DNA of 20,000 nt from Jimgerdemannia flammicorona. Taxonomy: Eukaryota. Positions 1 through 20,000 of this stretch are shown one piece after another. Location of the stretch: assembly GCA_003990765.1 (NCBI GenBank), contig RBNJ01000002.1, forward strand, positions 60,218-80,217, given 5' to 3'. The notes under the pieces were generated by a model. That model ran no database searches and was not told the DNA's origin. It saw only the letters and a program-made list of their open reading frames with translations. Made by a program: the position numbers and the translations under genes. Position 1 is the first letter of the stretch. Each line of letters opens with the position of its first letter.

Positions 1-161
1 TAAGTTTGTTATAAGCAAGTTCTTATTGGAGTAGTACTCCCAACAAATCAAATCAAATCAAATTTGGCCCAAACTCGATTTGATTCAATCGAATCAAGGG
101 TCTAATTCAATTCGATTCAAATCAAATCAAAGGTCCAATTTAATTTGAAGTTCAATTCAAA

Positions 162-316
162 CCTTAATTTTCAAAATGTAATAACTCGACGAACACTCAT
201 CCAAATTTAACATATTTTAGCTTGTTAGATTCACCATATTAATGTGATTCTAATAAGCTAAAGTATGTTAGATTTGGATGAGTTTACGCTGAGTTATTGC
301 ATTTTGAAAATTAGGG
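162..316. repeat. Central long inverted repeat (hairpin) inside the MITE
   Basis: Arm 162-234 matches the reverse complement of 244-316 (~73 bp, 9-nt loop CATATTAAT). Mismatches are mostly C/T or G/A transitions, plus one transversion and one divergent ~7-nt patch. Confidence 0.9.
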
Positions 317-396
317 TTCGAATCAGACCCTCAATTCAATTTGACTTTTGATTCGATTCGAATTGATTTGAATTGAAAAATCCCCAATTCAATTCG

Positions 397-448
397 ACTT
401 GTTTAACCCTCAATTCGATTCAACTTGTTTAACCCTCAATTCGATTCA
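397..448 (+). repeat. 26-bp tandem duplication in the MITE right subterminal region
   Basis: ACTTGTTTAACCCTCAATTCGATTCA at 397-422 and 423-448. Confidence 0.9.
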
Positions 449-1016
449 ATTCAAATTGATTTGACTTGTTTGGGAGTACTATATTGGAGTACCTTTTCAA
501 GATCTTATAGTCCTCAAACTTCTTATTTTTAAACTGTCTTGTTATCTCTTAGATTGCTCATAAGGAATTTGTATATAAGTGAACCAGAACTGACTTTATT
601 TCAGAGGAAATAAGAGGAGTATTTATACAAAATATAATTCAATAGTTGTTAAGATATAAAGCTAAATATAAATTCTAATAACTAAAATGAAATGTCAGAA
701 CAAGAAAAACTACTAAGTTCCAGGGTCAGTACTGATAGTTATATAGGTTCAGAATGCTGGTATAATTTTGATAGTACAGGAAAATAGTGCTGGAATAATT
801 CAGTGTTATCTCAGAATATCAGTGCTGACATAATTTGGTATCATATCAAAATACCAGTACTGGTATAACTCAGTGTAACTAAAGAACTTCAGAGCAGAAT
901 ATTCAAGACTATAGGGGCTTCATCTTTATCAGAGGTCAGAATGTCTTTGAAGAAGATGAGATCTGCAAATTTATCATTATTGTGTACTTCATGTATATTG
1001 TATAGGATAACATCAT

Positions 1017-2068
1017 CTACTCAGCTCTTCTAGTACTTCTAACAAATCCTCCTTCTTCTCCTCCTCACTTCTCTTCACCCTTATTATCTTACATATAAAG
1101 GCCCCCCACACTATTACTGATGACCAATTATAAGTCTTCTCAATAGCCTCCCTTCTAGTCAGCTGAAGCCAGATATCAATATCTCTTATTCTGAATGAGA
1201 TCCCTTCTCAGATTCAAAACTCAATATTGACTACTTCCTCATACTCAGCCATAATCTCCTCTACTCTTCTCCTCATCTCTATAGTAGTTACTATGGATAC
1301 TCCTTTTATCAGAAGTTGCACCATCCTGAGATCCTATTTTAAGCATCATACCATCAGAATATATATCTCCCCAACAGTCAGCTCTGCCTTCAGTATAACC
1401 TCTAATAGCTTAGCCTCTTTAAAACCCACCTCTACTCCTTTCAAACTCCTTAAAAACTTCACAGATACTATATTATCTATCTGCTTAGCAATTAGCTCCA
1501 AGACTATTTTCACTATCACTACTAAGCCTCAGAAGTACAGAGTGACTATAAACTCCAAGATTGACTTCTTAAGTAATGAGACTATTACCAGGCCTATCAC
1601 ACCATCTACCAGATCCCTCATTCAGCTAGGCCCTATCTTCCTAGCCTTACTATCAGTAGTTATATTTGGATTTTTTTTTTTCAAATTACTAGTTACTACT
1701 CTATTAATAGTTATGCTCCCAGTTACTATACCATCAGCCCTTCTATCAGATACTTCCAAGAGAGTCTCTTCTAGCCTCCCAGCAGCAGCCTTCCCCTTAC
1801 CACTCTATAGCTATCCATCTAGTCTAGCCACCAGACCCCCCTGCTTAATCTTCTTAGCAAAGCTCATCTGATTTCTCCCTGGCTGTATATTACCTCCTCC
1901 TCTACCACTACTGACCTCTCTTTCACTTACCAAAGTACTTGACATCTCCAACCCTACTCTCTGACTCCTCTCTACATGCTGCCAGCTAAATGCACTAGGG
2001 CTACCCTATTTAGTATACTCCATAGAACTCTAATTTGAGAATATGTTCTTAAGATATTTCTCCAAAGA
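1017..2068 (-). mobile_element. 5' fragment (5'UTR plus N-terminal ORF1) of a degenerate L1/Tx1-like LINE
   Basis: Colinear homology to 7815-8850: CTACTCAGCTCTTC at 1017 and ~7815; GCCAGCTAAATGCACTAGGGCTACCC at 1981 vs GCCAGTCAAATGTGCTAGGGCCACCC at 8766. Minus-strand reading from ATG at 2023 gives MEYTK*GSPSAFSWQHVER, with in-frame stops. Confidence 0.8.
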
Positions 2069-2069
2069 A

Positions 2070-3090
2070 TGGTATAAAAGTAGATAATATATATTTATAT
2101 AATATAAAGTATATCAGAAAGAGTTGCTGCTTAAATAATATCTTTAATTATTTACTCAAGCTCTATATCTTGATCTATTTTCTTAGATATAGTTTTACTT
2201 TCTATAGTTACTTCTCTCTATTCTTCTATAGACTTTTCTACTATATTCTTTTTGAGTCTTTCTAGTAGTCTTTTATACAGCTTTTTGTAGATATTCTTTT
2301 TAAATATTAGAGTAGAATAGACATCTTATTTCTGCTCTTTCTCTAAATCTTCAATCTCTTTAAAAGATATAGTAAAAGATATTAGAGAAAGAGATCACTG
2401 TCTAGTCTGAAAGTTTATTATCACTATAGATAAAAAGAGAGATACCTACTATACTTATAGAGAAGAAGATTACTACTCCTATAAATATATAAATAAGATC
2501 AAGCATAAGGCTCAGTTAAGTAATATTATTACAAATTATAAATAGACTAATACTATTACTTCTAAATATAGTTATTTAAGTAAATTTTTTAATAAGTTTC
2601 TTTATAAAATCACTATTCTTCTACTACTCTATAGCTTTTGACTGAGATATATTTTAGTTAATTATAGTTATAGAGATTATACTAGTTATCTTAGATACTT
2701 CTACTCTGACTTTAGTAACTTTCTCTATTATATAGTTTTGAAAATATTTGATTATCTAATATTACTAAGTATAAGTCACCTTTTGTAATAAATTTAGAAC
2801 TATTAGTGATAATTAAATTACTATAACTATCTCTAGGTAAATTTCTTTTATAAAAATTACTTTAATTACTTAATTTTTGATAATCTTAGTATAATCTACT
2901 AAAATTATCTAATAGTAAATTTAGATATAGTATATATATTTAGATCTTTATTTATTTTTTGATAAGTTGTATTGAATTAGTCATTCAGAGTCTACTTAAT
3001 TTTATCTATATAGTATATAGTTTATAGCTAGACCTTCTATACTATTAGTATTATATCATCATTATTTCTAATATAGTTTATAGCTATTGT
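2070..3090. other. Extremely AT/TpA-rich, CpG-free degenerate repeat-derived DNA
   Basis: Dense TATA/TAG/CTA motifs, no CG seen, no ORFs; the original identity is not recoverable by eye. Confidence 0.6.
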
Positions 3091-3099
3091 TAAATATAC

Positions 3100-6000
3100 A
3101 GTCTCTCTTCCACTATCTGATCCCCATAGGGGGGCCCCTCCCTACTCCTATCCAAGCAAAGACTATCTTCTCTCCCACTACTCCTACCCTTCTCCCACTC
3201 TGCCTATAAATTTTCTCCATCAATTGATGCCTCTGATCCCCCTGTATCTCCCAACCAAGCCACCAGCCTATCAATATGTCTTCTATAAGGCTATGCCATC
3301 ACAGCAGCCAGACCTCCAAGCCCAGTCTCCTCTTATCCTTGAAAACAAATAACCAGTATCTGGCCAATCCTACCCAAATGGCCAGAGTCCAGCCTAGCAT
3401 GAGTCATTCCTTTCTCACCCCCCCCACCAGTCTGTCTCTCAAATCCTCCCACCACTCCCATATGCCAGTTCCCCTGTACCTTACTCCCAAATAATCTCCA
3501 ACAGTCTGCCAAAAGTCACTAAGTACCTCACACTCCCCTAGCCAATGTTCAGGCATCTGCATATAACCCCCTACCTGTCTTACATTATAGTACTTCTCAC
3601 ATTCGAAGCAACCTCCCTCAACAAGGTGACCCAAGCAGTAATTGAACATGACATTCCTCCTCAGCATATACCACCAAGTCACCCAGTACTTCAGCAGCAT
3701 CCATCTTCTCACCTCAGCACTCCATGTCCAAATGCTATGCCAGTCCTACTCCTTGCCAATTCCTACACCTTGCCAACCACTGGGCCACAGATTCTGGCTC
3801 AGTCCCCTCTAGCAATCTATCCCATCACTAATGTCAAACTCAAGTAATGGGTTGCCATCCAGCAGTATCTGGTCCTATCTCTATATCCCTGGGTCTCAAT
3901 CTACCTCTTCTTCATTTCTCTGCCAATGGATTCTGATGTAGTGCACCCTCTCTGCTATCCCCCACCAAAAACCTTTGTATCACAATTGATTAGTATTCTG
4001 AAGTCCAACCAAAGATAAGAGATCTCCAGTTGAGCCTCTTGGCGAGGACCTCCTCTTCCAAACCTTCTGCAATAGGGGAACTCAACCACCCCCTCTCAAC
4101 TCTACAGCTCTCTTCAACTACCAAACCCTCAAGCAGTATAGCCTTTTCAGAAAGTCAACCAGTCCCAGTCCACCACTTGCCACTGGTAAGAACAAGACTT
4201 CCTAGCTTATCTAACTCCTCCTTCTAGCCCAGATCTATCTCTTGGCTAGCTTCATTAGTCTCTTCACTACTCAGGATAGAAAGTTCAGATGATACATCAG
4301 ATACCACAACTTCAGTATCCAGTAGATGTTCATAATTGTAACATGCCCTGTCAGAGACAATTGACAGCCCCCCCAACTCTGCAGGGCCTCTCTCCAGATT
4401 CCAACCTACTGCTCCCACTAAAGCCTGAGTAGTACTGACCCATATACTAATAAATAGATACCCAAGTACTGCACTGTCTCACCAGCAGAGACAATTGTTC
4501 CAATAACCTCCCTGCTCACCAGACCATTGCCTAATACTATTGTTTTGCATTTATACCAATTAAGTCTTGCCCCAGAGTTCTCCTCATACCACTCTACTGT
4601 CTCCTTAAGCTTCTCAATATCAGTAATTGATCCCAGTCTGACCACTATATCATCCACAAAGACCCCTACCTTCCACCCAATGCCAAAGATAGAGAGCCCC
4701 ACTATCTTCCACCTGATTCTATCCAGTAGCAGTTCCAGAGAAAGGGCATATAGAATGGGGAACAATGGGTCCCCCTAGAGCACTCCCCTACCCAAGGGAA
4801 ATGCCACCCCTCAATGTCTATTATATATGAGTACCACCCTACTTCCTTCCAGTAGACTGACCATTGCTAACTGGAACTAGTGCAGAACCCTGGTCCTATC
4901 TAAAACTTTTACCAGCCAGACTCACCTCACCTGGTCATAAGTGTTCTCCTGGTCCAAAAAGACCAGGCACCCATCCAATCCACAAGCTTGTGCCCCTTCA
5001 ATAACTCCATGTACCCAGGCTGTGCCATCCCTAATGAGCTATCTCCCTACAAAGCCCCTCTGCTCAATGTCTAAGATTTGCTGTACTACCTTTTGTAGTC
5101 TCACAACCACTATCTTAGTAACCAACTTTCTGTCCATACCCAGAAACATAATTGGTCTCCAGTTCCTCTAGTTCTCTTGCCTTCCTTTGTTCTTATAGAG
5201 CAATGTTACCAACTTCAGATTCTATTCCCCCACCCATCTCTCTGTCTGTAGAATAAGATCACACAATACTGTCATCTCACTCAGTACTCCTGAGATCCTG
5301 ATCATCTTCTTCCAGAAGTCTCAGGGCAAACCATCTTCTCCAGATGTCATACCCAGCATTGTTGCAGCAAGAACCTGGCAGATCTCCTCCTCTTGGACTG
5401 GCAACACCAAGTTGCTCATCCTATCTACTCATGGAGATTGCCAATCTTCTAATATATAGCCAATAGCATTGGCATCTACCCCACTCTCCTTTTCACTCCA
5501 CAATCTACTCCAGTGTATCTTTAAAGATCTAAGAATGTTTTGAATACTATGAACCAGAGTACCATTAGAGTCAAGCACTCTCTCCTATCTTTGTTGCACC
5601 CTCCTCACCTAAAGGGCCCTCATGAGATACTTAGAGGGCCTCTCTCCTTCTTCCAAACCCTACCAATGTAGCCATGCTGCCAAGCTCTACACCCTTGCTT
5701 CTTCCTCCTTCTGCAATACCTGTTATAGTTCACCAACCTTCTTCTTCATCCTTATTGACCTCCAGTTCTCCTCTCCCTCCAGTATTACCAATCTTGCCCA
5801 ATCTCCCAAGAGTCTAGACAGTCTACTAGAAGCCCATCTCACCCTTCACCTCCTCTGTTTCCCAGCCTTCCTGCCAGCCTCACTCCAGTATATCCTGGCT
5901 ATCTCCTTTATTCTCATCCACTGAACACCAACTGGGGCACCTTTCTATCTCCGACACTCTATCTATAGTTGAATGTCTGCAGCCCACCCATTCCACCAGA

Positions 6001-6760
6001 TTCTATCATCTTATCCAATAAGGAGAAATTGAGGTACCAATGTCCAGGCCCATCCCCACTTCCCCCAAACTGTCTCTGTCTGAAAATTCCCCAATGATCT
6101 GACCAAGGACACTATTCCACCTCCAGTGACCTCCAAACATCCATGCCCCAGTAGCTGGCTATCAGAATCCAATCAATTCTTGTCTCCAAGCCCCCTGTCC
6201 AATGTGTGTATACTCTCCTATCCTCTCAGCACTTCCTACCTATATCTACCAAAGCACTCAGCCTTTCCACTTCCTCTCATACTATCAGTCCTCCACTCTA
6301 ACCCTCAGCTTCTTATCCTCTATCTGTCCTGTCTAACAGTACATCTCGAATCATATTAAAGTCTCTACCAAGTATATCTACCCCAGTCTCTGCAAGTATC
6401 TCACTCTCTTAAAGACTCTTCACCCAGTCCACACACTCATCTCATACAGCAGGGCAGTAACAAGAGCCTACTGTGATTGGCTCCTGTCCAGTATATATCC
6501 ACTTGCCCCAGACCAGTCTATTTCCCTAGCTCTACATATCCCTTATCTCCCCTCTGTCTTTTTGTATCAGAATCCCAACCTTGTCCTTCCAAACTACCTC
6601 ACCTCTCCATTCCTTCATCTATTCCAGTTTATCCAAATTATCTTCACACTGAACATTCTGCAAGAGGAAGAGATCAGCCTTCAATCTCTTCAGCCAAGTA
6701 AAAATATTCCTTTATTGAGAAGTACTCTGTAACCTATTTATATTTAGTGAAAAATGTTGG
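3100..6760 (-). pseudogene. LINE ORF2 remnant: AP endonuclease - reverse transcriptase - zinc finger
   Basis: Minus-strand motifs read manually. APE: NIFTWLKRLKADLFLLQ (~6660-6710), ILGRDFN (~6355-6375), TRIDWI (~6165-6183), WSDH (~6095-6105), GPGHWYLNFSLL (~6018-6052). RT: SGEDGLP (~5325-5345), NWRPI (~5150-5165), EQRGFV (~5048-5065), FLDQENTYD (~4933-4960), RGVL*GDPLFPILY, FVDD (~4650-4660), SGARLN, QYLGI. C-terminal CFEC...EHWLGEC (~3530-3610). Confidence 0.92.
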
Positions 6761-6789
6761 TTATACTATTTATATTAAAGTATGGTGTG

Positions 6790-8810
6790 TTTATCCAGTC
6801 TATCTCTACTGCTCTAAGTTCATCTCTTCCTATACCATGTCCAGATTATATTCTGCAGTCACTGCCTCCTCTTCAGCCCTCTGAGCCTCCAATCCAGCCA
6901 ACAGCTCATTCATCTCACTATCTGCCTTCTTCTCAAACTCCTCTCAGTACTCCAGACAGGCCTCCTGCCAGAGCTACAACCCATGTTACTTGGCCCAACA
7001 GTACTTGGCCCTCTCACTGGCAACTCCTGCTAGTTTGGCCTCCTACTCCTTATCCACCTTATACTCTTTCTCCTCTAGATATACTACAAGGATCTCTGCC
7101 TTCAATGCCAACTCTACACCATCTCTCTGTATTACTTGCACCCACTGTTCATCACTCATTACCCTCAAGTCCACCTCTCCCAGCTCTTCAGCTATCAGGT
7201 TATTCATCATTCTGCACATCTATAGTAGATTTTCTACTTCCTTCTCTCCTGGGGTTGCTGGTCTTCTACTATCCAATATTGTGGTATCAGCCCCAGCACT
7301 TACAGCCTCATCCTACACCTCCAGAACATCTACCAATTTCTCCTCTCCAACTGCCACCACCTGTCCCTCATTCACTACCTCAGGAATACTAAATTACACT
7401 CACTGGGCCCCCTTCATTGACACATCCTCTCCTACTCTGCTCTAGAAAGCCAGCCCTTACCTGATGAGAGGAGTAGGGATAGGTGATCCCTCCCAGTCCT
7501 CCTCTCAGACCTTGAATGTACTATCAGTATACATGTTGCCACTGGCTGCTTTTCTGTCCTCCTCTGTTCCTTTCTCTGCACTCTCATCCATCTCACTGGC
7601 CCAGACACTCACCCTGGCACCCCCCAGTTCCACCATTCCACCTACCTCCTTCTGTGGTCAACTTTCCATCTTAGCCAGTAGCTCCTTCTGATGCTTATGG
7701 CTCTGAGCTTTTTCCCATTGCCCCTTGTCTATTCTAATTCTCTTTCCATCTACCACCTCTAAGTATGTTGACTCTACAAAAGCCCTCCAAGCCTTTGCTT
7801 ACTGCTCTACCACTCTACTCAGCTCTTCCAGTATCTACAGCAAGTCCTCTTCCTCCTCTTTGCTTCCCTTCACCCTTGTCACCTTGCATAAGATTGCCCC
7901 CCAGACTATTACCGAAGGTCAGTCCCTTGTCTTCTCTGTAGCTTCTTCTCTGCCAGCTAAATCCACACATCCATATCTCTAGTCCTGAGTGAGGTCTCTT
8001 CCCAGACTCTGAACCTGATATCTACTACCTTGCCATACTCCACCATAACCTCCTTGACTCTCCTTCTCATCTCTACTATCATCACTGTAGGTACTCCTTT
8101 TACCAGCAGTTGGACTACCCTGGGGTCCTATTTCAGACAGCATGCTATTAGAATACACATCTCTCTAACAATCAATCTAATCTTCAGTGCTTTCTCCAGA
8201 GGCTTGGTCTCCTCAAAACCCACCTCTACTTCCTTCAATCCCTTTAGAAACTTCATGGATACTGCTCCAGCCACCTACTTAGCAATAAGCCCCAGTACTA
8301 TTTTCACCATTACTACTAGTCTCTGAAAGTACAACATCACCATGAATACCAAGATTAATTTCTTAAGTAACAGCACCACCACTAGACCTATTACACCATC
8401 TACCAAATCTCTCTGCCTTCCAAGCCTCAGTTGCTCAGCCATACCATCAGCTATCATATTTGGATTTTTTTCCAGATTGGTAGTCTTATCACTATCAGCC
8501 ATCACACCCCCCCCAGCCACTACTCTCCCAGCTCCACTGCTCTCACCCCCAAGCACTACTCCCCTGCAAACTATCATCATCTCCATCTCCTTGCCTTTTC
8601 TCAGTCAACCCTCCAACTTTGTTATCTGCTGTCTCTCCTTCACTATCTCTGTGAAGCTCATCCTCTCTGATCCCTGTCCTCTACTGCCACCTCTCCCTCC
8701 TCCTCATCCTCTTGCCAACAACCCCCTCATGCTACCCCCCAGGCCAGGACCTCTCTCCACCTACTGCCAGTCAAATGTGCTAGGGCCACCCTGCTCAGTA
8801 TACACTCTAG
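6790..8810 (-). pseudogene. LINE ORF1 remnant (RRM-like nucleic-acid-binding protein with G/R- and E-rich low-complexity parts)
   Basis: Lies upstream of the APE domain. Reads YTEQGGPSTFDWQ*VERG at the 5' end and VQLLVKGVPT...VKEVMVEYGKVVDIRFRVW (~8000-8115), resembling L1/Tx1 ORF1 RRM regions. Homologous to 1017-2068; interrupted by stops. Confidence 0.7.
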
Positions 8811-9164
8811 AATACTTGCTGTTTGCTATTTTCTTATCACCTTTCTCCAATAAATGACTTGAGAGTATATTGTAAAGTATATGTAATGTAAATATTAGCT
8901 GAGAAAGGTGTGAAGAACTTGAATATAGTTCATAGCTATGAATATAGCTCTTATAGAACCTTGAAGGCTAAATAATATAAGAGCTACTTGTTATACTAGT
9001 AATAGAGTTCTTATAGTAATATATTGCTCAAAATTATTAAGAAAGTAATAATTAATTCATCAGATATATATTTATAGAATACTGATAGTCTTATATCTAC
9101 CTTGTTTAGATATCTTGATTTGATTTAAATAGATATTTAAATAGTAGTAGTTATTCATTATTTA

Positions 9165-10327
9165 ATACCTCTTTCAATACTACCTTACCAGTCATAAGAT
9201 TTGGTAGGTGACCTTCTGAGTCCCCTTTCCCCTAATATTACTCCCTCTACCTTGGGTTGGTTTGCTGTGCCTGCAGGGGCATGGTGGGAGGAGGGCAATA
9301 GTGATGAGTTGCCCCTTTATCAGTATCAGATTGGTACTTCCTCCACTTTTTTGCAGATTCTAGTACCTTCAGCTACATCTGGGGTATACCCATTTTGGTG
9401 TAGCACCTTCTTCCTTTTACCATTGTCAATAAGGTGTGTATCTCAGGCTACATAGGGAGTCAGCTAACCTTGGGCATCAAGTACTCAGTATAGGTTACCT
9501 GCAGGTCTTCAGTGCCTATAGTGAGGCCCTCTGGCTTTGGTGAGCTTCCTGGCGAGCATGGTTCTGGTGTAGGTGACTGCTTTTCAGGTGTTGTTGGGAT
9601 GGGAGGAGAGATGGCTATCACAGATAGATAGAAGGATAATAACAGTGAATCAGTAGGGTATCAGGCTGGGAGTGGTCATTGGGGCTGGGACAGATGCTGC
9701 TTCAGTAGGGCCTTTTGATTGATGCGGTATGGTTAGATGGTAGGTGTCACTCTCAGCTTCTTTTGGTGGTCAGCAAGGTTGGGCCCCAGTCGTCAGAGGG
9801 GGTCAGGGGGCCTGAGGCTACCCATTTCAGGCATCTTGGCTGCACTCAACTGGAACTGAGAGCTGACATAGCAATGTGATCGAGGCCTACAGACTTGAGT
9901 AGTGGGGTATTGGGGACTTCCTCCTGTCTCATATATAAGTCCTTTACTCATCTTGACTGGGAGAACCAGGCCCTACTCACTGTATTGTGCTTTGATGAGA
10001 GTTTTTCTTTGCCTATCATTCTCTTTGGGGTGATAAGGGCTATTCTATTTGGCTCGAGCATAGCCTTGTACATATATTGGGTTCTTGGGTATGTACTTTC
10101 AGTCATTGGCATATAGTTGGATTTCCCCTAGTAGTAGGGAGAGCATGGTGTGCAGAATGAGATACAGACTACTATAGGCCCTGCTATACCTAGCATGGTC
10201 GAGCTACTGGACAATAGCTAGTCTAGATTAATGGGGGGGCAGTGCTTAGTGGGTAATGGGAGAGGGTTTTGGTCTATATAGTCTAGGTTCTCTTCCAATA
10301 AAATTCCATGGGATATGAGTCCATTAA

Positions 10328-10375
<48 letters not shown>
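9165..10375 (+). mobile_element. Poly(A)-tailed retrotransposed insertion (5'-truncated non-LTR element or retrocopy) with 15-bp TSD
   Basis: 46-nt poly(A) at 10330-10375; AATAAA at 10297-10302; direct repeat GTTATTCATTATTTA at 9150-9164 and 10377-10391. GC is higher than in the AT-rich flanks. Confidence 0.85.
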
Positions 10376-10377
<2 letters not shown>

Positions 10378-10391
10378 TTATTCATTATTTA

Positions 10392-11070
10392 GCTTAAAAG
10401 TGAGAGATTTATCTTAAATTACTGATTAATAGATACTAAGTTATAATATAGTAGATACTTAATCTTAGAAATATAGCAGATTTTTTTATCTTAAATATTT
10501 AACTTTTTAGAGTTCTCAGAAATATAAGAGTGAGTAAGTTCAAAGTATATATATTTGTCTGTAGACTTACTAGTTCTCTTATCTCTTTACTTTGAACTAT
10601 TGAGATTTATTTACTCTATATAGATACTTGAAATATTTATATAAGTTTGCTAACTATATAGTAACTAAGTTAGAACTTCTTTTTCTATAAGTTATTTCTT
10701 ATAATTGTGAAATCTATATCTGTATAATTCTTATAATTGTGAGTTTTGCACAAGTACAATTATATAAATCATATAATTGTGAGATCAGATAACTACTAAC
10801 TATAATACTATATATATTATATCAGAAATTAGATTCAGGTACTGTAATCAAATATCTATTCTTCTGATTCTTGTTCCTAATTTGGATCAACTGTCACACT
10901 AGTAAATAATATATATTTAAAAATTTTACTAATTTAAGTATTTATAATATATATATTGATTAGATATTTTTTATAATAATTATTATATAACTATTAATAT
11001 ATAATATACATTTCAAATATAAATAAATAAAATAATATTTACTTATAATATTTATGTATTATTATAAACT
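10392..11070. other. Very AT-rich degenerate DNA with short repeated TATAATTGTGA motifs
   Basis: No CG seen until ~11072. TATAATTGTGA at ~10700, ~10732 and ~10772, plus inverted ACAATTATA at ~10757. 10900-11065 is almost pure A/T. Confidence 0.55.
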
Positions 11071-11407: not shown

Positions 11408-11816
11408 CTGGAATGCGGTGAGCTGGAAAGCTGGAATGCGACGAGCTGGAATGCGACGAGCTGGAATGCGACGAGCTGGAATGCGGCGAGCTGGAATGCG
11501 ACGAGCTGGAATGCGGCGAGCTGGAATGCGGCGAGCTGGAATGCGGCGAGCTGGAATGCGGCGAGCTGGAATGCGACGAGCTGGAATGCAAGAGATCGAG
11601 CAGCGAGTTGCAAGGCTAATACTTACGAAATTGCTGGAATGCAGCGAGCTGGAATGCGGCGAATATGGCGAGCTGGAATGCGGCGAATACGGCGAGCTGG
11701 AATGCGGCAGCTGGAATGCGGCGGCGAGCTGGAATGCGGTGAGCTGGAATACGGCGAGCTGGAATGTGGCGAGCTGGAATGCGGCGAGCTGGAATGCGGT
11801 GGGCTGGAATACGGCA
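11408..11816 (+). repeat. 15-bp minisatellite CTGGAATGCG(A/G)CGAG in two blocks
   Basis: Ten contiguous near-perfect units at 11431-11580 plus partial flanking units. Second, more variable block at ~11633-11816 with 12-, 15-, 18- and 24-bp variants. No unique spacers. Confidence 0.95.
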
Positions 11817-12359
11817 GTAGCCAGGGTTGATAGAATAGCTTATTAAAGGGATCAGATTTCATTTGCACATTGAAATTTTGTCCACCAATTATGTCATTTT
11901 CAACTTTGAGCGCACGTCCAGGGTTAGGAGGTCCAATTTTAGTGACTCACTCTTTTACACCATTACAGATAACGAACGAAGGTGTGACGTCGTATTTGTT
12001 AACACAACAAGTACCAACCTAGTAGGTGCGGAGATCTGTCAGTATAGCAATAAGCAAGATTGTGAATCTAGCTGAATCTAGCGACATTCAATTTTGAAAT
12101 AGGTAAGGTGGATGACCGACAATCAGTTAAAACATTTAATGTTATTGGTCAATTTGATCAGCTAAACTGAAAGAAGTATCGAGTTGAAAATGGAAAGAGT
12201 CTGTGACATCAACATTATCATCCAACAGATTTGGAATAATACCTGATGACGCACTTGTCCAAAAATAAAATTCCGTCTTAACTTTGAACGCATCTAATAT
12301 GACCCGTCAGGCGATCAAACCCTCCGTTCTCTGTCATCTTGTCCAAACCTCCCTCCAAG

Positions 12360-13529
12360 ATGTCTCTCGAAAATGGCAAAAAATCCGACGAGTGAGTGTG
12401 CCTTTTTATCGGTTTTGTGCAAATCCCACGCGCCCTGATATTCGCCAATTCTCACCACCCAACAGAGACATCCGCGAACACGGTTTCATCTCCAAACGCT
12501 CCAAAATTCACATCGTTCTCTCCGGAAGTGAGACTGAGGAAGAAGCTCGCGCCGCTGAGTTTCTCCCCGTTATCCCTCCGTTCCCGGCAAAGACCATGAG
12601 CTTCCACGAGGAGCGCCTCCGTCGCAAGCATATGCTCGCCGCTGGGTTCAGGCTGTTTGCCAAGTTTGGATTTGATACAGGTACGTGCGAAGGCATCTAG
12701 AAGAAGCCTCGCCATAGAATCAGATCAGCAATTTTTTCTTGTCCATGGAACGCCTTGAATGTTGCTTACGCGATTTCGCACGCCCTCTCCACACAGGTGT
12801 TGCCGGCCACATGACCTGCCGCGATCCCGAGTTTCCCGAGCTCTTCTGGGTGAACCCCTTCGGCATGTATTTTGGTCATATCAAGGCCTCTGACCTCGTC
12901 CTGGTCGACCACGAAGGTGAGCTCGCCCGCGGGACCTGCGCCGTGAACAAGGCCGCCTTTGCCATCCACTCGCAGGTTCATGCGGCGAGGCCAGACGCCA
13001 TTTGTGCGTGCCACAGGTATGTTTTAACTTCCTTTCGGGTTTTCCGTTTCCGGATCCTGATTCTCACAAACACCTTCTCCCAACCACCAGCCACTCCATG
13101 TACGGCAAGGCCTTTTCCTCGCTCGGCCGCCTCCTCCTCCCCATTACGCAAGACGCCTGTGCCTTCTACGAATCGCACGCGCTCTTTGACGACTACGCGG
13201 GAGTGGTGTACTCGACGGACGAGGGGGCGCGGATTGCCAAGGCGCTGGGCCCGACGAACAAGGCGGTGATCCTGCGTAACCACGGGCTGTTGACGGTGGG
13301 CACGACGGTGGCCTCGGCCATCTGGTGGTTCGTCTCCATGGAGCGGTGCGCCCAGGCCCAGCTGATCGCCGAGCAGGCTGCCATCAACGGCCACAAAGAC
13401 CTCATCACCATCGATCATGACATGGCCAGGGCCGCCCACGATATCATCGGTGTCGAGCAGACGGGACAGTTCAGCTTCCAGCCCATGTATCAGATGATTG
13501 TGAGGGACCAACCAGATTGCTTGGAGTAG
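12360..13529 (+). CDS. Class II aldolase/adducin N-terminal domain protein (mug14/NovR-like subfamily), 301 aa, 4 exons
   Basis: Exons 12360-12391, 12466-12680, 12797-13016, 13091-13529, all GT-AG, total 906 nt in frame. Motifs: [61 protein letters not shown], metal-binding CHSHS and ILRNHGLLTVG. Confidence 0.93.
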
Positions 13530-13786
13530 AGGGCTTTCTAATCTTTGAGATATTCAAGTCCTCCTTGTACATATTATTCTCGTCCAGACCTTAGCGATTT
13601 CGTAAGTCGCTTTCAAAGAAGCTAATAAAATTATATAGTAACTAACGCAAATACCTAAGATTCAACAAAGGTTCATCCAATAGAGACACAAAGTCCGTGG
13701 AAGCGTTTGTCTACGTCATCAAGTTCTAAATCAAAACAAAACCATTTCGAATTACCCTTCAACGCCTCCCACTCCAGTCACCAGCA

Positions 13787-15389
13787 ATGTCCGACAAACG
13801 GAAAGACCCGCCCTCCGCTGTGAGCACTGTCGTCAAGCGCCAGCGACAGGAAGACGATCAGCCCGCTGCTTCAACTGCCCTTACAACAATAAATGCTCCC
13901 GGCTCTTCCGCCGTGAGCATTGTCGGAACGGTACGCCATTCGAGTCTTTCCACCCCCTATTGGCCTGTTGAGGTCGACCAATTCATGACCAAATAATGTC
14001 TTCCTGATGGTTTTGCAGATCAAGCGGACATCGGGCCTTCAAGCTCCCATCATGTTGCTTTCCGGCCACGGGGTATGCCGTATTTCTTGTCTGTGCATTG
14101 TTGATTCTGAAATCTACCGCGCTTACGGCTCCCTTTTAACTGTTTTCTCTCCTCAGGGCGACGTCTTCTCTTGCAGGTTTGATCCCAGCGGCCAACACAT
14201 TGCCTCGGCTGGCTTTGATCGACAAATTCGTACGTTTTCGAAAATTTTAACTGTAATTGAATACACTGCATTTTCTCGCTCCAAAATTAAAAATAATATG
14301 AAAATCCTGGCCGCGGTAGTGTTATGGAACACCTACGGCGATTGCGTTAACTACGGCCTAATCAAGGGACACACAGGCTCCATCATGGAACTCAACTGGT
14401 CTCGTGATGGCAGGTATAATTCAACTCGATATTCATTCCTATTTTTTTGACCGTATTTCATATGCTCGAATATTCATCATTTCGCACAATTTTGGAAAAT
14501 TTTCTGTAGTCACATCTTTACCTGCTCGACGGACAAGACCCTGGGCCTCTGGGACGTCGTCACGGGTCAGCGTGTCAAGAAGTTCAAGGGACACACCTCG
14601 TTCGTGAACAGCTGTTCACCGGCAAGGAGGGGCCCCGAGATCTTGGTGAGCGGAGGAGATGATGGATGTATCAAGGTATGACGTCCCTGAGGTCTGGTAC
14701 GAGGTGGAAGGCTGAATTGGTATGCTTTGAATTGAATCCTGATGTTTTTCTGACAACCCTGTCTTGTACATCCTCTCCTTTCTTATAACCAAATCCAAAG
14801 CTCTGGGACCAGCGCGAGAAGAATGCAGTTGACACGTTCCAAAACAGATACCAGATCACAGCGGTTTGTTTCAGCGACGCCGGGGACATCGTGTTCGCGG
14901 GCGGGATCGACAACGAGATCAAGGTATCCTTTCGCTATCTGTTGCCCCGTCGATCTTCACCTTATGTACCTGTGGTCCGCGTGTTGCCAATATGCATTCG
15001 ATATCCAATTTTTACAGGCGTGGGATTTGCGCAAGAAGGACGTCGTGTACTCGCTCAAGGACCATTTGGATACCATATCGGGTATCAGGCTGAGTCCCGA
15101 CGGGTCGCTCTTATTGAGCGATGCGATGGATAATACCCGTATGTGATAACATTGTTTTTTTGTGGTGGGATTTCGGGGGGCTTTTGGCATCAGCGATGTG
15201 GGTGGGAATATCGGTAATTGACGTAAGCTTTCAATATCTATTTATTCGTCACAGTGCGGATTTGGGACGTAAAGCCCTTCGCACCAGCCAACCGGTGCAT
15301 GAAGGTATTTGAAGGTTAGCAAAACCATCTCGTTCTTTTTGCGATTTTCGTCTCGATGCTGCCAAGTTCTGACCTCCACGGGCTTCCTC

Positions 15390-15425
<36 letters not shown>

Positions 15426-15685
15426 GAAATTCTACAGGCGCCCCCCACGGCTTCGAGAAGAATCTTATCCGTCCCACCTGGTCTCCCGACGGAACGCAAA
15501 TCGCCGCCGGCTCCGGCGATCGCACTGTGGTGGTGTGGGATGTGCCATCGCGGAGGATTCTATATAAACTGCCTGGGCACAAGGGATGTGTCAACGACGT
15601 GGATTTTCATCCGCGCGAGCCCATTTTGGTATCGGGCAGCACGGATCACATGCTGTTTTTGGGGGAGATTAATCCGTCAAAGTAG
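13787..15685 (+). CDS. SNRNP40: U5 snRNP 40 kDa WD40-repeat protein (SNRNP40/WDR57; fission yeast Spf38/Cwf17), 360 aa, 9 exons
   Basis: Exons 13787-13930, 14019-14072, 14157-14229, 14320-14413, 14510-14675, 14801-14923, 15018-15138, 15255-15314, 15438-15685, total 1083 nt in frame, all GT-AG. Diagnostic RTSGLQAPIMLLSGH, LWNTYGDCVNY, HGFEKNL, RRILYKLPGHKGCVNDVDFHPREPI. Confidence 0.95.
15394..15424 (+). repeat. Intronic poly-T tract (similar tracts at ~18723-18754 and ~19353-19367)
   Basis: Homopolymer T runs just upstream of 3' splice AG sites in SNRNP40 intron 8 and in GTPase introns. Confidence 0.85.
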
Positions 15686-16041
15686 CGACGAAGGCGTATG
15701 TATGTGGCGGTTGTGTGGTTGAGTTCGATGTAGATGGCGGTGTTTAGACGAGGTATTGGGGGGAGGAACTTGACGTTTCGCTACCTGCGACAGGTTCTCA
15801 AAATTTATATCTTGCCATTTGGGTCCACTGTTGCCTCGATTCGTTTGCTGATAATCAGTTCTCTGTACATTATAAATGAGTGGACGAAGAATTCCGGAGG
15901 GATACGACTACACATTTAGCTATGATGTTCCGCCTTCCCTTGATGCCACTGGGGACGATAGGAGAAATGAAATTATGATTGTGGCGTAGGTAGTTTGCAA
16001 TGGGCTGGTTGACGGTGGAGGCAGTTGCATTGGCAGAGGAG

Positions 16042-16063
16042 AAAAAAAAAAAAAAAAAAAAAA
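16042..16063 (+). repeat. Intergenic poly(A) tract (22 nt)
   Basis: Homopolymer run; no flanking TSD found. Confidence 0.8.
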
Positions 16064-16787
16064 AGGATTAATCAATGCAACCGGAGTTTTAGCTCACTGA
16101 TCCACTTGTTCGGTTTCTCCATGAAACCCACCGCAAATGTTGGTTCGCACCGCAGACATCATTCAACCCCACGGTTTTTATCGGATCTCTTTCATTTCAC
16201 AATCGTTATAGTCGCTTGTGGCCGAGTTCTGCGCATCTGCGAGCGCATCTGCGAGCGCGACAAGTCCAGGATGTCATGGTTTATGGTTTCAGTCAGCAAT
16301 GTGTTTAGTGACATATAATATCTTACAAATATTCATCGTGCATCACAGTGAGTGATGGGTAAAGCAAACGGCTGATATATTGTCGGAAAATAAGGAAATG
16401 ATGACGGTGTGTGTAAATGCAGATAATAGGATCTTCACAATCAGCATACTAATTGATGGCCTCAGTTACTGATGGATGGATGGATGGTCTGCTACTCACC
16501 GCCTCATAAAGCCCAATATGACGGTGATTAAATCCTCAATATAATTATTTCAACAGGTCCTTGTATCAATAATACGCAGATCACCGTTTGCCAAGCTTTG
16601 GACTGTGATCACCTGCATGGGATGGGCTCTACATCCCATTTAAATTACTTTTTGAGTCTATTAGCCCAATACATCGAATTGGATTGGAGCTTAATATAAA
16701 GATTAGTCAGATGGTTCACTATCGAGAGAGGAATAAGAGGAAAACGGGGACTATAGCTTCGTTCTTTCCTTAAACAATTGCAACAAA

Positions 16788-18719
16788 ATGCTCAATAGCG
16801 AAGGGGTGAGCTGACCGACAGCCACGAGAAATCTATTGACCTACCTATTTTTCGTGAGAACATCGCTTCCTTCTTACCGACTCTTTTATCCTGCATTCTG
16901 GCAAACCTCCGCATGTAGGTCAATGGCGACCTTCCTCCACTTACGCCAATGACTGTAGAAAAATATACGGTCGCGTTGCGAGGTCATCTTAAGAAAATCG
17001 ACGAAGCGATCGAAAAGCACCGATTCGCGTCGAAGAATAGATCAAAACAGTTTCGTGAGGCGGTCCAGGAAATCATCGGGAGATTGCACCTCGGCAAAGT
17101 CGAAATTGCCGTTGTCGGAGATGCCGGGGCAGGTAAGATGTACCGCCGCATTCCATACGTTTCACGCATTGTATCTGATTTGCCGTCGCCTTTTCTCGAG
17201 TGCAGGGAAGACGTCCTTGTTCAACGCCCTTCTTGACATTGAGCACTTCATGCCAACCAGCAATGGAGGGTACGTATGTCCAAGATGATGATTATTTACG
17301 CCGGGGTGAGGTGTTCTTCTCTTGGGCCTTGGCGTCCTCCCAAAACTCAGCCACGAGCAACCTCACGACCTTGATGTGCCCAGTCTGCACGGTTTGATGA
17401 AGCGGCATTCATCTGTCGTTTGCTTTGATAATAATACCAACTGTCTCTGTTTAATTTGTTTGTTTCTTATGCGATCTCAGGGCCTGCACTTCTTCAGTGA
17501 ATGTGATTTCCTACAACTGTGAAGACTCCAGCTTTGTTTGCGATCTGAAATATAAGTCGAAAGAAGAATGGGAAAAAGAATTGGAATTGTACTTCGATTT
17601 TCTAAAAGACGAATGTGGCAATATTGTTAAGTCATTGGAAGATTCAGATCAAAGTATGCATAGTTGATATTTTGCCCCCTGATATCATTGAAACGACGTT
17701 GCTAACCACCCACAACATAAACATTTTCCCATCACCACTATATAGAGGACTCTGCTTCAAAATTGCGGACAGTCTTTGGACTTCCGTCGGATCACACAAC
17801 ATGGGTATTTGAACAGCTGCGTAAGGATGAACGTGTGAATGAATTGCTCGGTAGAACAAATTCTTCTATGAGAAAAAAAGCGCGCTTGTTTTCCACCACG
17901 CTAAAGCAAACATTGAAGGCCCCGGTAATTAAAGTACGTATTCTGAATCAGCTTAGAATAATGCAGACGTATTGCTCACGAAAAACATAATCGGATTTCG
18001 TTCCTAGGACCCCACTCGTGATTATACTCTGCTTATAAAAGAGGTCCATATCCGAGGGCCTTTCGAAATTCTGCGTTCCGGAGCCATACTTGTTGATTTG
18101 CCTGGTGTTGGGACCACGGACGCCATTACTTCGGCTGTTACCTGCAACTATCTGAAGTCTGCTAAAGCTTTCTGGGTTGTGCATGATATCTTGAGGTATA
18201 CTTACAAGGCTTAAAAAGCGAAGATGTGGCTCTTTTCAATCTCGGAACTGACTTTTTTTTTTGTTTAATTTACAGGGCGGCAGATAATCAAAATGCGCGA
18301 AATCAACTTAAAGAGAGTTTTAGACGAAGGGTGAGAATTTTCATTATCGAGCCCTGTAATGCTCTCCTCTGTCCTCCCCTTCACCTCCTCTTCTCTTTTG
18401 TTGAATGGAGATGGAAAGCAATCAATTCTCATGCAATGTCTATTATACCTGTATGTTTAAGGTGTTCATGGACAATCAATTACGGTCGGTCGCTTTCGTG
18501 TGCACAAAAACGGACCAGTGTGAGCCTGATGCCGATGATGTCCAGTTAGACTCGGATCAAGAGGATGATGACATGAGCTGCGATGAGAATAGCTCTACGG
18601 AGGATAATGGAGAATACCTGGCAAGGATTGCGAATGCAAGAAATATTTCAACAGTTCAAAAGATTAGGGATAATTTCAGAGCGATTCAACAAGGTACGTT
18701 TTTGTGCTTTGTCACTAAG

Positions 18720-18754
<35 letters not shown>

Positions 18755-20000
18755 CATTACAGAGGTGTTGGAGGGCAAACAACAGCCGTTTGACGATGAG
18801 GAACTGCATGTCTCGTGTGTCAGTTCGCGAGATTACTTTTCTCTCCGTAATAAAAACAGGTGACTCGTCAAAGAGAGGGATGTCTATGTTGCAAGTTTTG
18901 AAAGATACCATTCTTACAATTTACCATCTCATAATCTAGGAAACCTCGCAGGCCACCGACTTTCACTGACATTCAAGACACCGGAATAATTCAGCTTCGA
19001 GAATTTATTGGACGACAGACAGAAAATCGCGTTAGAATCATTTTCAACATTCTCCGTCAGGATGAACAAATCCTTCAAACCATGTTGAACTACATCGCCT
19101 TCAACAGGAAGCTTGGACTTGACAGTGAATATCGGCGCTCCTTGCAAACTGCCTATCAAGAGTCCCTTAGTGAGTTCCAGGCCAGCATTAAAGCCTTGAT
19201 GGCACAGAAACTCGACGCTATGAATGAAATCTTCGACAAGTTTCAGGAGAGCTTGATCGAACCGGTCGCCACAGCTCAAAGAGAAAGTTTACGTAATATA
19301 ATCCAGGAGAGCGACAAGGTATCGATAATTTTATGATCTTACACTTGACGCATTTTTTTTTTTTTTTAATACTGCAGTCAATAATCATTTTTTATACACC
19401 AAAGTTGAGATGGAATACATTCAAAGCGGGTACGTTTAACTAGTAATGATAATATTCTTTGAGGAGTTTTGATGTGCTCATAGCCGGAATAATGAATATC
19501 ACTCCAGTTTGCCGCAATAATGGCAAGTACGAAAGCAAAATAGGAGGCGAGGAAGGAGGCATACGCGTAATCGACTTTAACAATGTACGTACATAAGCGG
19601 TACATGCCCGTTCTTGCATGTTGATCACATTGTAATTCCCCTTTTGACCTCTGACTACAGGCTCTGGCTCGACCGCTGCTGGTAATGATATTGTTTCATT
19701 ATCGCTTTGATCGTCAATGTCAAAAATCCTCATCCATCTCCCTCTCTCTCTCACTATTCAGAATAAGCTCGCTAATCGTTGGTTCTCAAACACAATATGG
19801 AAGTTCCTAAAAGCCTTCAAGCAATTGAGTAAAGAGACGACGCAAGTATTTGAAGATGGATTAAAAAAGATTGGCGCCAAAATTCGGGCTGAGGATGTCC
19901 CTGAAGAATGCCTTCAGGACTTGAAAAGTCAATTCTCAAAGGTTGTCATCGAGGAGGTAATGATTTTTATTTTTATTTTATTTTATTTATTATTATTTGG
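16788..20000 (+). CDS. Nuclear GTPase SLIP-GC (NUGGC)-like dynamin-family GTPase, 3'-incomplete
   Basis: Predicted exons 16788-16805 (start exon less certain), 16919-17132, 17206-17269, 17481-17653, 17746-17933, 18008-18195, 18276-18330, 18462-18693, 18763-18859, 18940-19318, 19378-19429, 19508-19584, 19661-19681, 19762-19956; all GT-AG and in frame. G1 GDAGAGKTSLFNALL, G2 PTSNGGACTS, EEWEKEL, G3 LVDLPG, RAAD, G4 FVCTKTD, VSSRDY, DTGI, WNTFKAVCRNNG, DFNNALARP. Confidence 0.85.

What the first reader, a model, noticed from the sequence alone, without database searches (positions are those of the whole stretch)
3600..10205. Surviving CpGs are almost all in TCG/CGA context: possible novel mutator specificity
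Seen by manual scan (a few may be missed): CGs at ~3604 TCGA, 4043 GCGA, 5952 CCGA, 6347 TCGA, 7913 CCGA, 9553 GCGA, 9725 GCGG, 9791 TCGT, 9881 TCGA, 10055 TCGA, 10200 TCGA. Ten of eleven have TCG on one strand and five are TCGA, more than expected by chance. Established: RIP-like mutation in some Pucciniomycotina prefers TpCpG, the opposite pattern. Inference: the methyltransferase/deaminase here disfavours a 5' T, a distinct sequence signature.
Basis: partly seen in the sequence, partly recalled or inferred. Interest (0 to 1): 0.72.

Follow-up and report, generated by a model that had tools for sequence, protein, structure and literature searches.

The report
Flank-biased CpG decay in fungal retrotransposons
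Dead jumping genes in this early-diverging fungus have lost almost all CG sites, and those with a T in front decay most slowly and those with an A fastest, the same order known for decay of methylated cytosine in humans, so this looks like ordinary methylation damage rather than a new mutator.

Summary
The 11 CpGs are exactly as listed (about 300 expected); 10 of 11 carry TCG on one strand (P 0.006). They lie in a dead LINE and a 1.2-kb poly-A retroelement of an Endogonales fungus. The bias is real but milder elsewhere: 273 of 362 residual CpGs (75%) in 178 kb of other CpG-poor DNA, against 52% in CpG-normal DNA. Aligned copies give relative CpG loss rates by 5' base of A 2.65 : C 1.63 : G 1.57 : T 1, and faster before a 3' C; deep decay amplifies this into the residual TCG excess. 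This is not a new signature: it is the published order for 5-methylcytosine deamination in humans and close in size to the MBD4-deficient signature SBS96 (2.3-2.7 : 1.5-1.6 : 1.3-1.4 : 1). Loss shows no strand-coordinated bursts, unlike RIP. Non-CpG C>T (CA > CC >> CT) and DIM-2-like genes point to broad TE methylation. Methylation itself was not measured, so an enzyme flank preference remains possible. The scan noted the same pattern earlier on other DNA of this genome.

The parts
3088..8921 (-). Dead LINE (non-LTR retrotransposon), about 5.8 kb, stops in all three frames; holds 5 of the 11 CpGs
   Evidence: RVT_1 match at 4421-4774, E 6.7e-7; copies align from 3084 to about 8910 at 81-87%; 93-152 stops per frame
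3070..3087 (+). Likely target-site duplication of the LINE, left copy (17 of 18 identical to 8922-8939)
   Evidence: read by eye
8922..8939 (+). Likely target-site duplication of the LINE, right copy
   Evidence: read by eye
9165..10376 (+). 1.2-kb poly-A-tailed, SINE-like retroelement, younger than the LINE; holds 6 of the 11 CpGs
   Evidence: 39 other near full-length matches at 86-87% among 40 scored candidates; common 5' end near 9171 and poly-A 3' end; poly-A 10326-10375; longest stop-free frames 108-122 codons in the three least decayed copies; no Rfam match
9150..9164 (+). 15-bp target-site duplication of the SINE-like element, left copy (identical to 10377-10391)
10377..10391 (+). 15-bp target-site duplication, right copy
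3604..7914 (.). Five CpGs in the LINE: 4043, 6347, 7913 inherited survivors; 5952 probably newly made; 3604 ambiguous
   Evidence: states in other copies
9553..10201 (.). Six CpGs in the SINE-like element, all inherited survivors (CG in 11-23 of 30 copies)
481..11050 (.). Whole CpG-depleted repeat block (11 CpGs, 377 expected); continues at least 20 kb to the left of the window
11900..20000 (+). CpG-normal gene block used as internal control (class II aldolase, WD40 protein, a third gene): 442 CpGs, 425 expected, no flank bias

Best explanation
Repeats in this fungus are cytosine-methylated (inferred), densely at CpG and less at CpA and CpC, by DNMT1-superfamily enzymes including DIM-2-like ones (genes shown). 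Methylcytosine deaminates to T and is poorly repaired (inferred), one strand and one site at a time (shown: no strand coordination). The per-cytosine rate depends modestly on the flanks, 5' A 2.65 : C 1.63 : G 1.57 : T 1 and about 1.4-fold faster before a 3' C (shown). A CpG is lost when either strand is hit, so TCGA, slow on both strands, lasts longest; at 94-97% loss the exponential turns a 1.6-fold rate gap into a 3-fold survival gap per T flank (shown). The flank order is a property of 5mC decay already known from humans, not of a new mutator.
For: Survival at inherited CpG sites with 0, 1, 2 T flanks: 0.024, 0.073, 0.155 (LINE 3090-7100, 120 sites, 29 copies), 0.028, 0.118, 0.223 (held-out LINE 7110-8890, 73 sites, 19 copies), 0.19, 0.35, 0.60 (SINE-like, 65 sites, 29 copies); site-level permutation P 0.0002 each. 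Fitted rates with site bootstrap: A 2.21-3.22, C 1.36-1.92, G 1.34-1.84, 3' C 1.17-1.61. SBS96 in five tumour types: A 2.26-2.72, C 1.45-1.58, G 1.26-1.40 relative to T (PMC11564873 source data; not corrected for trimer abundance). MBD4-deficient leukaemia: ACG high, TCG low, higher before 3' C, ACA top non-CG site (10.1101/180588, passages); here ACA is the top of 12 non-CpG trimers in both families. Rank correlation of the fitted 16 contexts with human methylated germline rates 0.94 (raw 10-class values 0.73 and 0.61). CpA shows the same extremes, ACA 0.22 vs TCA 0.085. No per-copy strand bias (P 0.48-0.73) or runs (P 0.19-0.98). The fitted model reproduces the residual spectrum (76% TCG at 6% survival, observed 75%, in-sample) and the independent genome sample gives 75%. 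Three DNMT1-superfamily genes in the genome.
Against: No methylation data. Human germline rates alone (1.41: 1.23: 1.19: 1) give only 56-58% TCG survivors from the real starting sites, against 75% observed, so the match in size rests on SBS96. G (1.57) is above all five SBS96 values, and three of them fall just under its 95% range. The 5' effect is absent at CpC and CpT, which a purely chemical 5' effect does not predict. Survival alone gives a stronger T effect (C/T 1.9-2.7) than TG:CA asymmetry alone (1.3-1.6), leaving room for lower methylation of the whole site. CpG C>T runs at 245-494 times the transversion rate, high for passive decay unless repair is weak. A TDG/MUG-type glycosylase gene is present and absence of MBD4 was not shown.
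Confidence: 0.68

Rival explanations
1. Methyltransferase flank preference: the fungal DIM-2-like or DNMT1-like enzyme methylates TCG/CGA sites less, and mutation simply follows methylation level.
For: Survival shows a stronger T effect than strand asymmetry. The 5' effect is present at CpG and CpA but not at CpC. DNMT1 has almost 100-fold flank preferences in vitro (PMC7381644, passages); DIM-2 flank preference is stated to be unknown (PMC11315935, passages).
Against: It would have to reproduce by coincidence three features of the human 5mC-deamination signature (5' order, 3' C, ACA), which in humans remained after correction for methylation. No effect of the -2 or +2 flank (95% ranges span 1), whereas DNMT1 preferences are described over NNCGNN.
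Confidence: 0.19
2. Enzyme-driven, RIP-like mutator: a methyltransferase or deaminase converts C to T in repeats directly and avoids a 5' T.
For: 89% of differences between copies are transitions (14831 of 16734); CpG C>T is 245-494 times the transversion rate; non-CpG C>T of 5-10% in the order CA > CC >> CT matches Zymoseptoria Dim2 site preference, and Dim2 there promotes mitotic C>T (PMC8016269, passages).
Against: No strand coordination within copies; CpG loss and non-CpG change rise together smoothly across copies (rho -0.49 and -0.75 with survival); the Zymoseptoria mutator spares CG, which here is the main target.
Confidence: 0.09
3. Chance, composition, newly created CpGs or selection on the element.
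For: Only 11 sites; one is probably new, one ambiguous, one has a changed flank; the window exceeds the genome-sample rate; 3 of 17 loci did not show a T excess.
Against: Measured per inherited site in three data sets, one non-coding; 14 of 17 loci and 362 CpGs elsewhere agree; CpG-normal DNA shows no bias.
Confidence: 0.04

Closest known systems
5-methylcytosine deamination signature of MBD4-deficient human cells (SBS96; 10.1101/180588, PMC11564873)
   Same: ACG > CCG ~ GCG > TCG at nearly the same ratios; higher before 3' C; ACA the top non-CpG site; A highest and T lowest at CpA too
   Different: Here in fungal transposon fossils, not tumours; much more non-CpG change, including CpC; GCA exceeds CCA; methylation and repair state not measured; a TDG-like gene is present
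Human and primate germline CpG mutability (PMC13245866)
   Same: 5' A raises and 5' T lowers the rate at methylated CpG; same rank order; strand asymmetry within one CpG
   Different: Spread is 1.41 : 1.23 : 1.19 : 1, much smaller than 2.65 : 1.63 : 1.57 : 1; the 3' T slowing seen in humans is not seen here (0.80-1.24)
Dim2-dependent methylation and C>T mutation in Zymoseptoria tritici (PMC8016269)
   Same: DIM-2-like genes; non-CpG order CA > CC >> CT; confined to repeats
   Different: There CG sites are not mutated at high rate; here CpG is by far the main target
TpCpG hypermutation of Pucciniomycotina (PMC3318451)
   Same: Repeat-associated C>T at CpG with a 5' flank effect
   Different: Opposite direction (TCG is the slowest here) and graded rather than one outlier trimer; different phylum
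CpG-type transposon decay in fungi with DNMT1/Masc2 or DIM-2 (PMC4352252); 5mC in Phycomyces repeats (PMC11258239)
   Same: CpG C>T in repeats ascribed to methylation then deamination; Phycomyces repeats methylated at CG and CHH but not CHG, like the lower CAG and CCG rates here
   Different: The passages read give no 5' flank analysis and do not mention Endogonales

Membership tests
5mC deamination signature (SBS96-type) | 5' order ACG > CCG ~ GCG > TCG | tested here: met
   versus 74, 80
5mC deamination signature (SBS96-type) | Higher rate before a 3' C | tested here: met
   1.41 (1.17-1.61); 1.59 in the held-out part, where 3' G and T were also about 1.5
5mC deamination signature (SBS96-type) | ACA the most mutated non-CpG trimer | tested here: met
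   highest of 12 in both families; its range overlaps that of GCA
5mC deamination signature (SBS96-type) | Mutated sites are methylated; rate follows 5mC level | not testable with these tools
   no methylome at hand
5mC deamination signature (SBS96-type) | Lack of MBD4-type T:G repair | tested here: inconclusive
   HhH-GPD search scored 4 candidates: MutY, NTH1 (two exons) and a weak 3-methyladenine glycosylase match; no MBD4 query was run; TDG/MUG-like gene present
RIP (Neurospora type) | CpA as main target | tested here: not met
   CpG loss 73-95% versus CpA C>T 10-15%
RIP (Neurospora type) | Strand-coordinated bursts within a copy (feature recalled) | tested here: not met
   tested on CpG outcomes; plus and minus non-CpG rates correlate across copies
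RIP (Neurospora type) | RID/Masc1 gene | tested here: inconclusive
   none among 4 PF00145 matches of 8 scored candidates; no RID query was run
RIP (Neurospora type) | Premeiotic and triggered by sequence duplication | not testable with these tools
   needs crosses or transformants
Pucciniomycotina TpCpG hypermutation | TCG is the hypermutated trimer | tested here: not met
   TCG is the slowest
Zymoseptoria Dim2 mutator | DIM-2 gene and CA > CC >> CT | tested here: met
   best solved-structure match DIM2 at E 6e-39; rates
Zymoseptoria Dim2 mutator | CG sites spared | tested here: not met

The most novel reading that the evidence does not exclude
A DIM-2-like enzyme of Endogonales acts as a repeat-targeted mitotic mutator or has its own flank code (favours 5' A, avoids 5' T, avoids 3' T), giving CpG loss hundreds of times faster than transversions without RIP-type bursts. 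In the weaker form: the transposon fossils are a cross-kingdom replicate of SBS96, showing that the A > C ~ G > T order is intrinsic to 5mC chemistry and not to human repair or methylation enzymes.
Probability: 0.2. Interest if true: 0.6.

Novelty: new member of a known kind. Interest (0 to 1): 0.3.

Why it matters
As a claimed new mutator it mostly dissolves. What remains useful: a fungus with different methyltransferases shows the same flank order, at about the same size, as unrepaired 5mC deamination in human tumours, which argues that the order comes from DNA chemistry; and it warns that residual-site counts in deeply decayed repeats exaggerate small rate differences. A methylome of an Endogonales fungus would separate chemistry from enzyme preference directly.

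Tried and rejected
Longer motif (runs of T, -2 or +2 flank): no effect in the alignment model (95% ranges span 1), only a mild TT dimer excess in the genome sample (1.71 vs 1.05-1.37 for other NT dimers). Human germline rates as a full explanation: first looked sufficient with equal starting contexts but not with the real starting sites. RIP-type strand coordination: none. Structured-RNA origin of the 1.2-kb element: no Rfam match. Search for a canonical DNMT1 with a basidiomycete-type query: the top match (C172) was, by eye, to a non-methyltransferase tail of the query, and the methyltransferase part matched the DIM-2-like gene; the gene on C3657 has one exon closer to DNMT1 (E 3e-4) and stays unclassified. 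DNMT5 was not searched for separately. Sequencing runs for a methylation or read check: none was listed. Word search of earlier findings: nothing.
Full report
Observation. The 11 CpGs, their positions and tetramers are exactly as listed. They are the only CpGs in 481-11050, where 377 are expected. Against local composition, 10 of 11 with TCG on one strand has P 0.006; 5 TCGA P 0.0012 and 15 of 22 half-sites with 5' T P 1.5e-4 (which corrects three wrongly entered counts). The gene block at 11900-20000 has 442 CpGs (425 expected) and no flank bias.

Host and anatomy. The window's aldolase has Bifiguratus and Mucorales proteins as best hits, and a methyltransferase exon from the same genome is identical over 87% of its length to proteins labelled Jimgerdemannia flammicorona: an Endogonales fungus. 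The stretch is a dead LINE on the minus strand (3088-8921; RT match; 18-bp likely target duplication) and a 1.2-kb poly-A element (9165-10376; exact 15-bp target duplication; no long frame; no Rfam match). In other copies, 9 of the 11 CpGs are inherited survivors, 5952 is probably new, 3604 is ambiguous, and the TCGA at 10055 is TCGG in 18 of 30 copies.

Outside the window. I took 40 stretches of 10 kb from contigs chosen by number, not by a random draw, all longer than 11 kb. Of 800 bins, 356 were CpG-poor with CpG-poor neighbours and held 362 CpGs: 273 (75%) with TCG on a strand, 77 (21%) TCGA; 5' T 1.37 times and 5' A 0.46 times background (T 1.55 in bins of GC 0.40 or more). In 268 CpG-normal bins the figures were 52%, 8.6%, 1.05 and 1.01. 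14 of the 17 loci with enough CpGs showed the T excess.

Rates from aligned copies. I used 29 of the 39 other matches, 29 of the 39 other full-length matches and 19 of the 39 other main matches; these are the copies most like the window's own and share some ancestry, so tests were made at site level. Inherited CpG sites were called from the presence of both TG and CA, independent of surviving CG; sites with unclear flanks were dropped (120 of 136, 73 of 83, 65 of 66 kept). Survival with 0, 1 and 2 T flanks was 0.024, 0.073, 0.155; 0.028, 0.118, 0.223; and 0.19, 0.35, 0.60 (P 0.0002 each). A strand model fitted to survival and TG:CA outcomes gave 5' A 2.65 (2.21-3.22), C 1.63 (1.36-1.92), G 1.57 (1.34-1.84), T 1, and 3' C 1.41 (1.17-1.61) (window copy included; nearly the same without it). 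The -2 and +2 flanks add nothing. With these rates 76% of survivors carry TCG at 6% overall survival, from 46% at the start (87 of 189): a modest rate gap amplified by near-complete decay.

The wider process. 14831 of 16734 differences between the window's LINE and its copies are transitions. Non-CpG cytosines also change: CA 0.15, CC 0.10, CT 0.04 in the LINE and 0.095, 0.050, 0.010 in the younger element, against 0.13-0.6% transversions. CpA shows the same 5' extremes (ACA 0.22, TCA 0.085) but CpC and CpT do not. Copies show no strand bias or runs, and CpG loss and non-CpG change rise together: gradual, site-by-site decay. The genome holds three DNMT1-superfamily genes, two closest to Neurospora DIM2 and one unclassified, plus DNMT2-like matches (label by recalled motif), and a TDG/MUG-like gene. 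MBD4 was not among 4 HhH-GPD candidates, which is weak evidence.

Comparison with what is known. In the human germline a 5' A raises and a 5' T lowers the rate at methylated CpG (PMC13245866: abstract, passages, section 6, part 1 of the S1 table); ranks agree with the fungal fit (rho 0.94) but the spread is smaller and gives only 56-58% TCG survivors. In MBD4-deficient leukaemia ACG is highest, TCG lowest, a 3' C raises the rate and ACA is the top non-CG site (10.1101/180588, passages). SBS96 source data give A 2.26-2.72, C 1.45-1.58, G 1.26-1.40 relative to T, uncorrected for trimer abundance (PMC11564873: passages, section 10, source-data parts 1 and 6; its large supplement 3 could not be read), close to the fungal values except that G is higher here. 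The non-CpG order matches Zymoseptoria Dim2, where CG is however spared (PMC8016269, passages); Phycomyces repeats carry CG and CHH but not CHG methylation (PMC11258239, passages). PMC4352252, PMC7381644 and PMC11315935 were seen as passages. Searches listed no paper on the 5' flank of CpG loss in Endogonales or Mucoromycota; a 2017 survey of CG deficiency in fungi by Clutterbuck is recalled only and was not itself listed.

Earlier notes of the scan. After forming my reading I found that the same TCG/CGA sparing (e1-7552188) and the CpG > CpA > CpC >> CpT pattern (e1-7507978, e1-7552540) were noted on other DNA of this genome. They are not independent support. The 'behind runs of T' detail was tested and only weakly seen.

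Verdict. Real, genome-wide in the sample taken, and best explained as the known flank dependence of 5mC deamination (A > C ~ G > T) acting on methylated, poorly repaired repeats and amplified by deep decay. Shown: the bias, the rates, the lack of bursts, the genes. Inferred: methylation, passive deamination, weak repair. An enzyme flank preference cannot be excluded without a methylome.

Noticed in passing
window 30-480: AT-rich inverted-repeat element built of short ATTCG/ATTCA/ATTTG-like units; keeps 12 CpGs, 10 of them TCGA, beside 20 TCAA and 10 TTGA, as if a TCGA-rich repeat were decaying slowly; copies occur elsewhere.
   Followed up: partly
window 9165-10376: High-copy 1.2-kb poly-A element without long frame or Rfam match; its origin and partner LINE are unknown. 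One locus (L046, L122) holds a second, diverged subfamily at 72-77%.
   Followed up: partly
window 1016-1677 and 7814-8471: A second, older fragment of a related LINE at 72% identity.
   Followed up: no
window 2020-3050 and 10380-11050: AT-rich relics (GC 0.19-0.25) with CA/TG and CC/GG depleted and CT/AG doubled: the end state of the same decay.
   Followed up: partly
window 11408-11815: 15-bp tandem array of about 26 copies at the edge of the depleted block that keeps its CpGs.
   Followed up: no
G000 C8187, C11271, C3657 (L101, L113, L112): Three DNMT1-superfamily paralogues, two DIM-2-like; more than the single DIM2 reported for Phycomyces.
   Followed up: partly
window 16930-20000: Multi-exon gene with a P-loop-like motif (dynamin-like by recall); no Pfam match for three pieces.
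   Followed up: no
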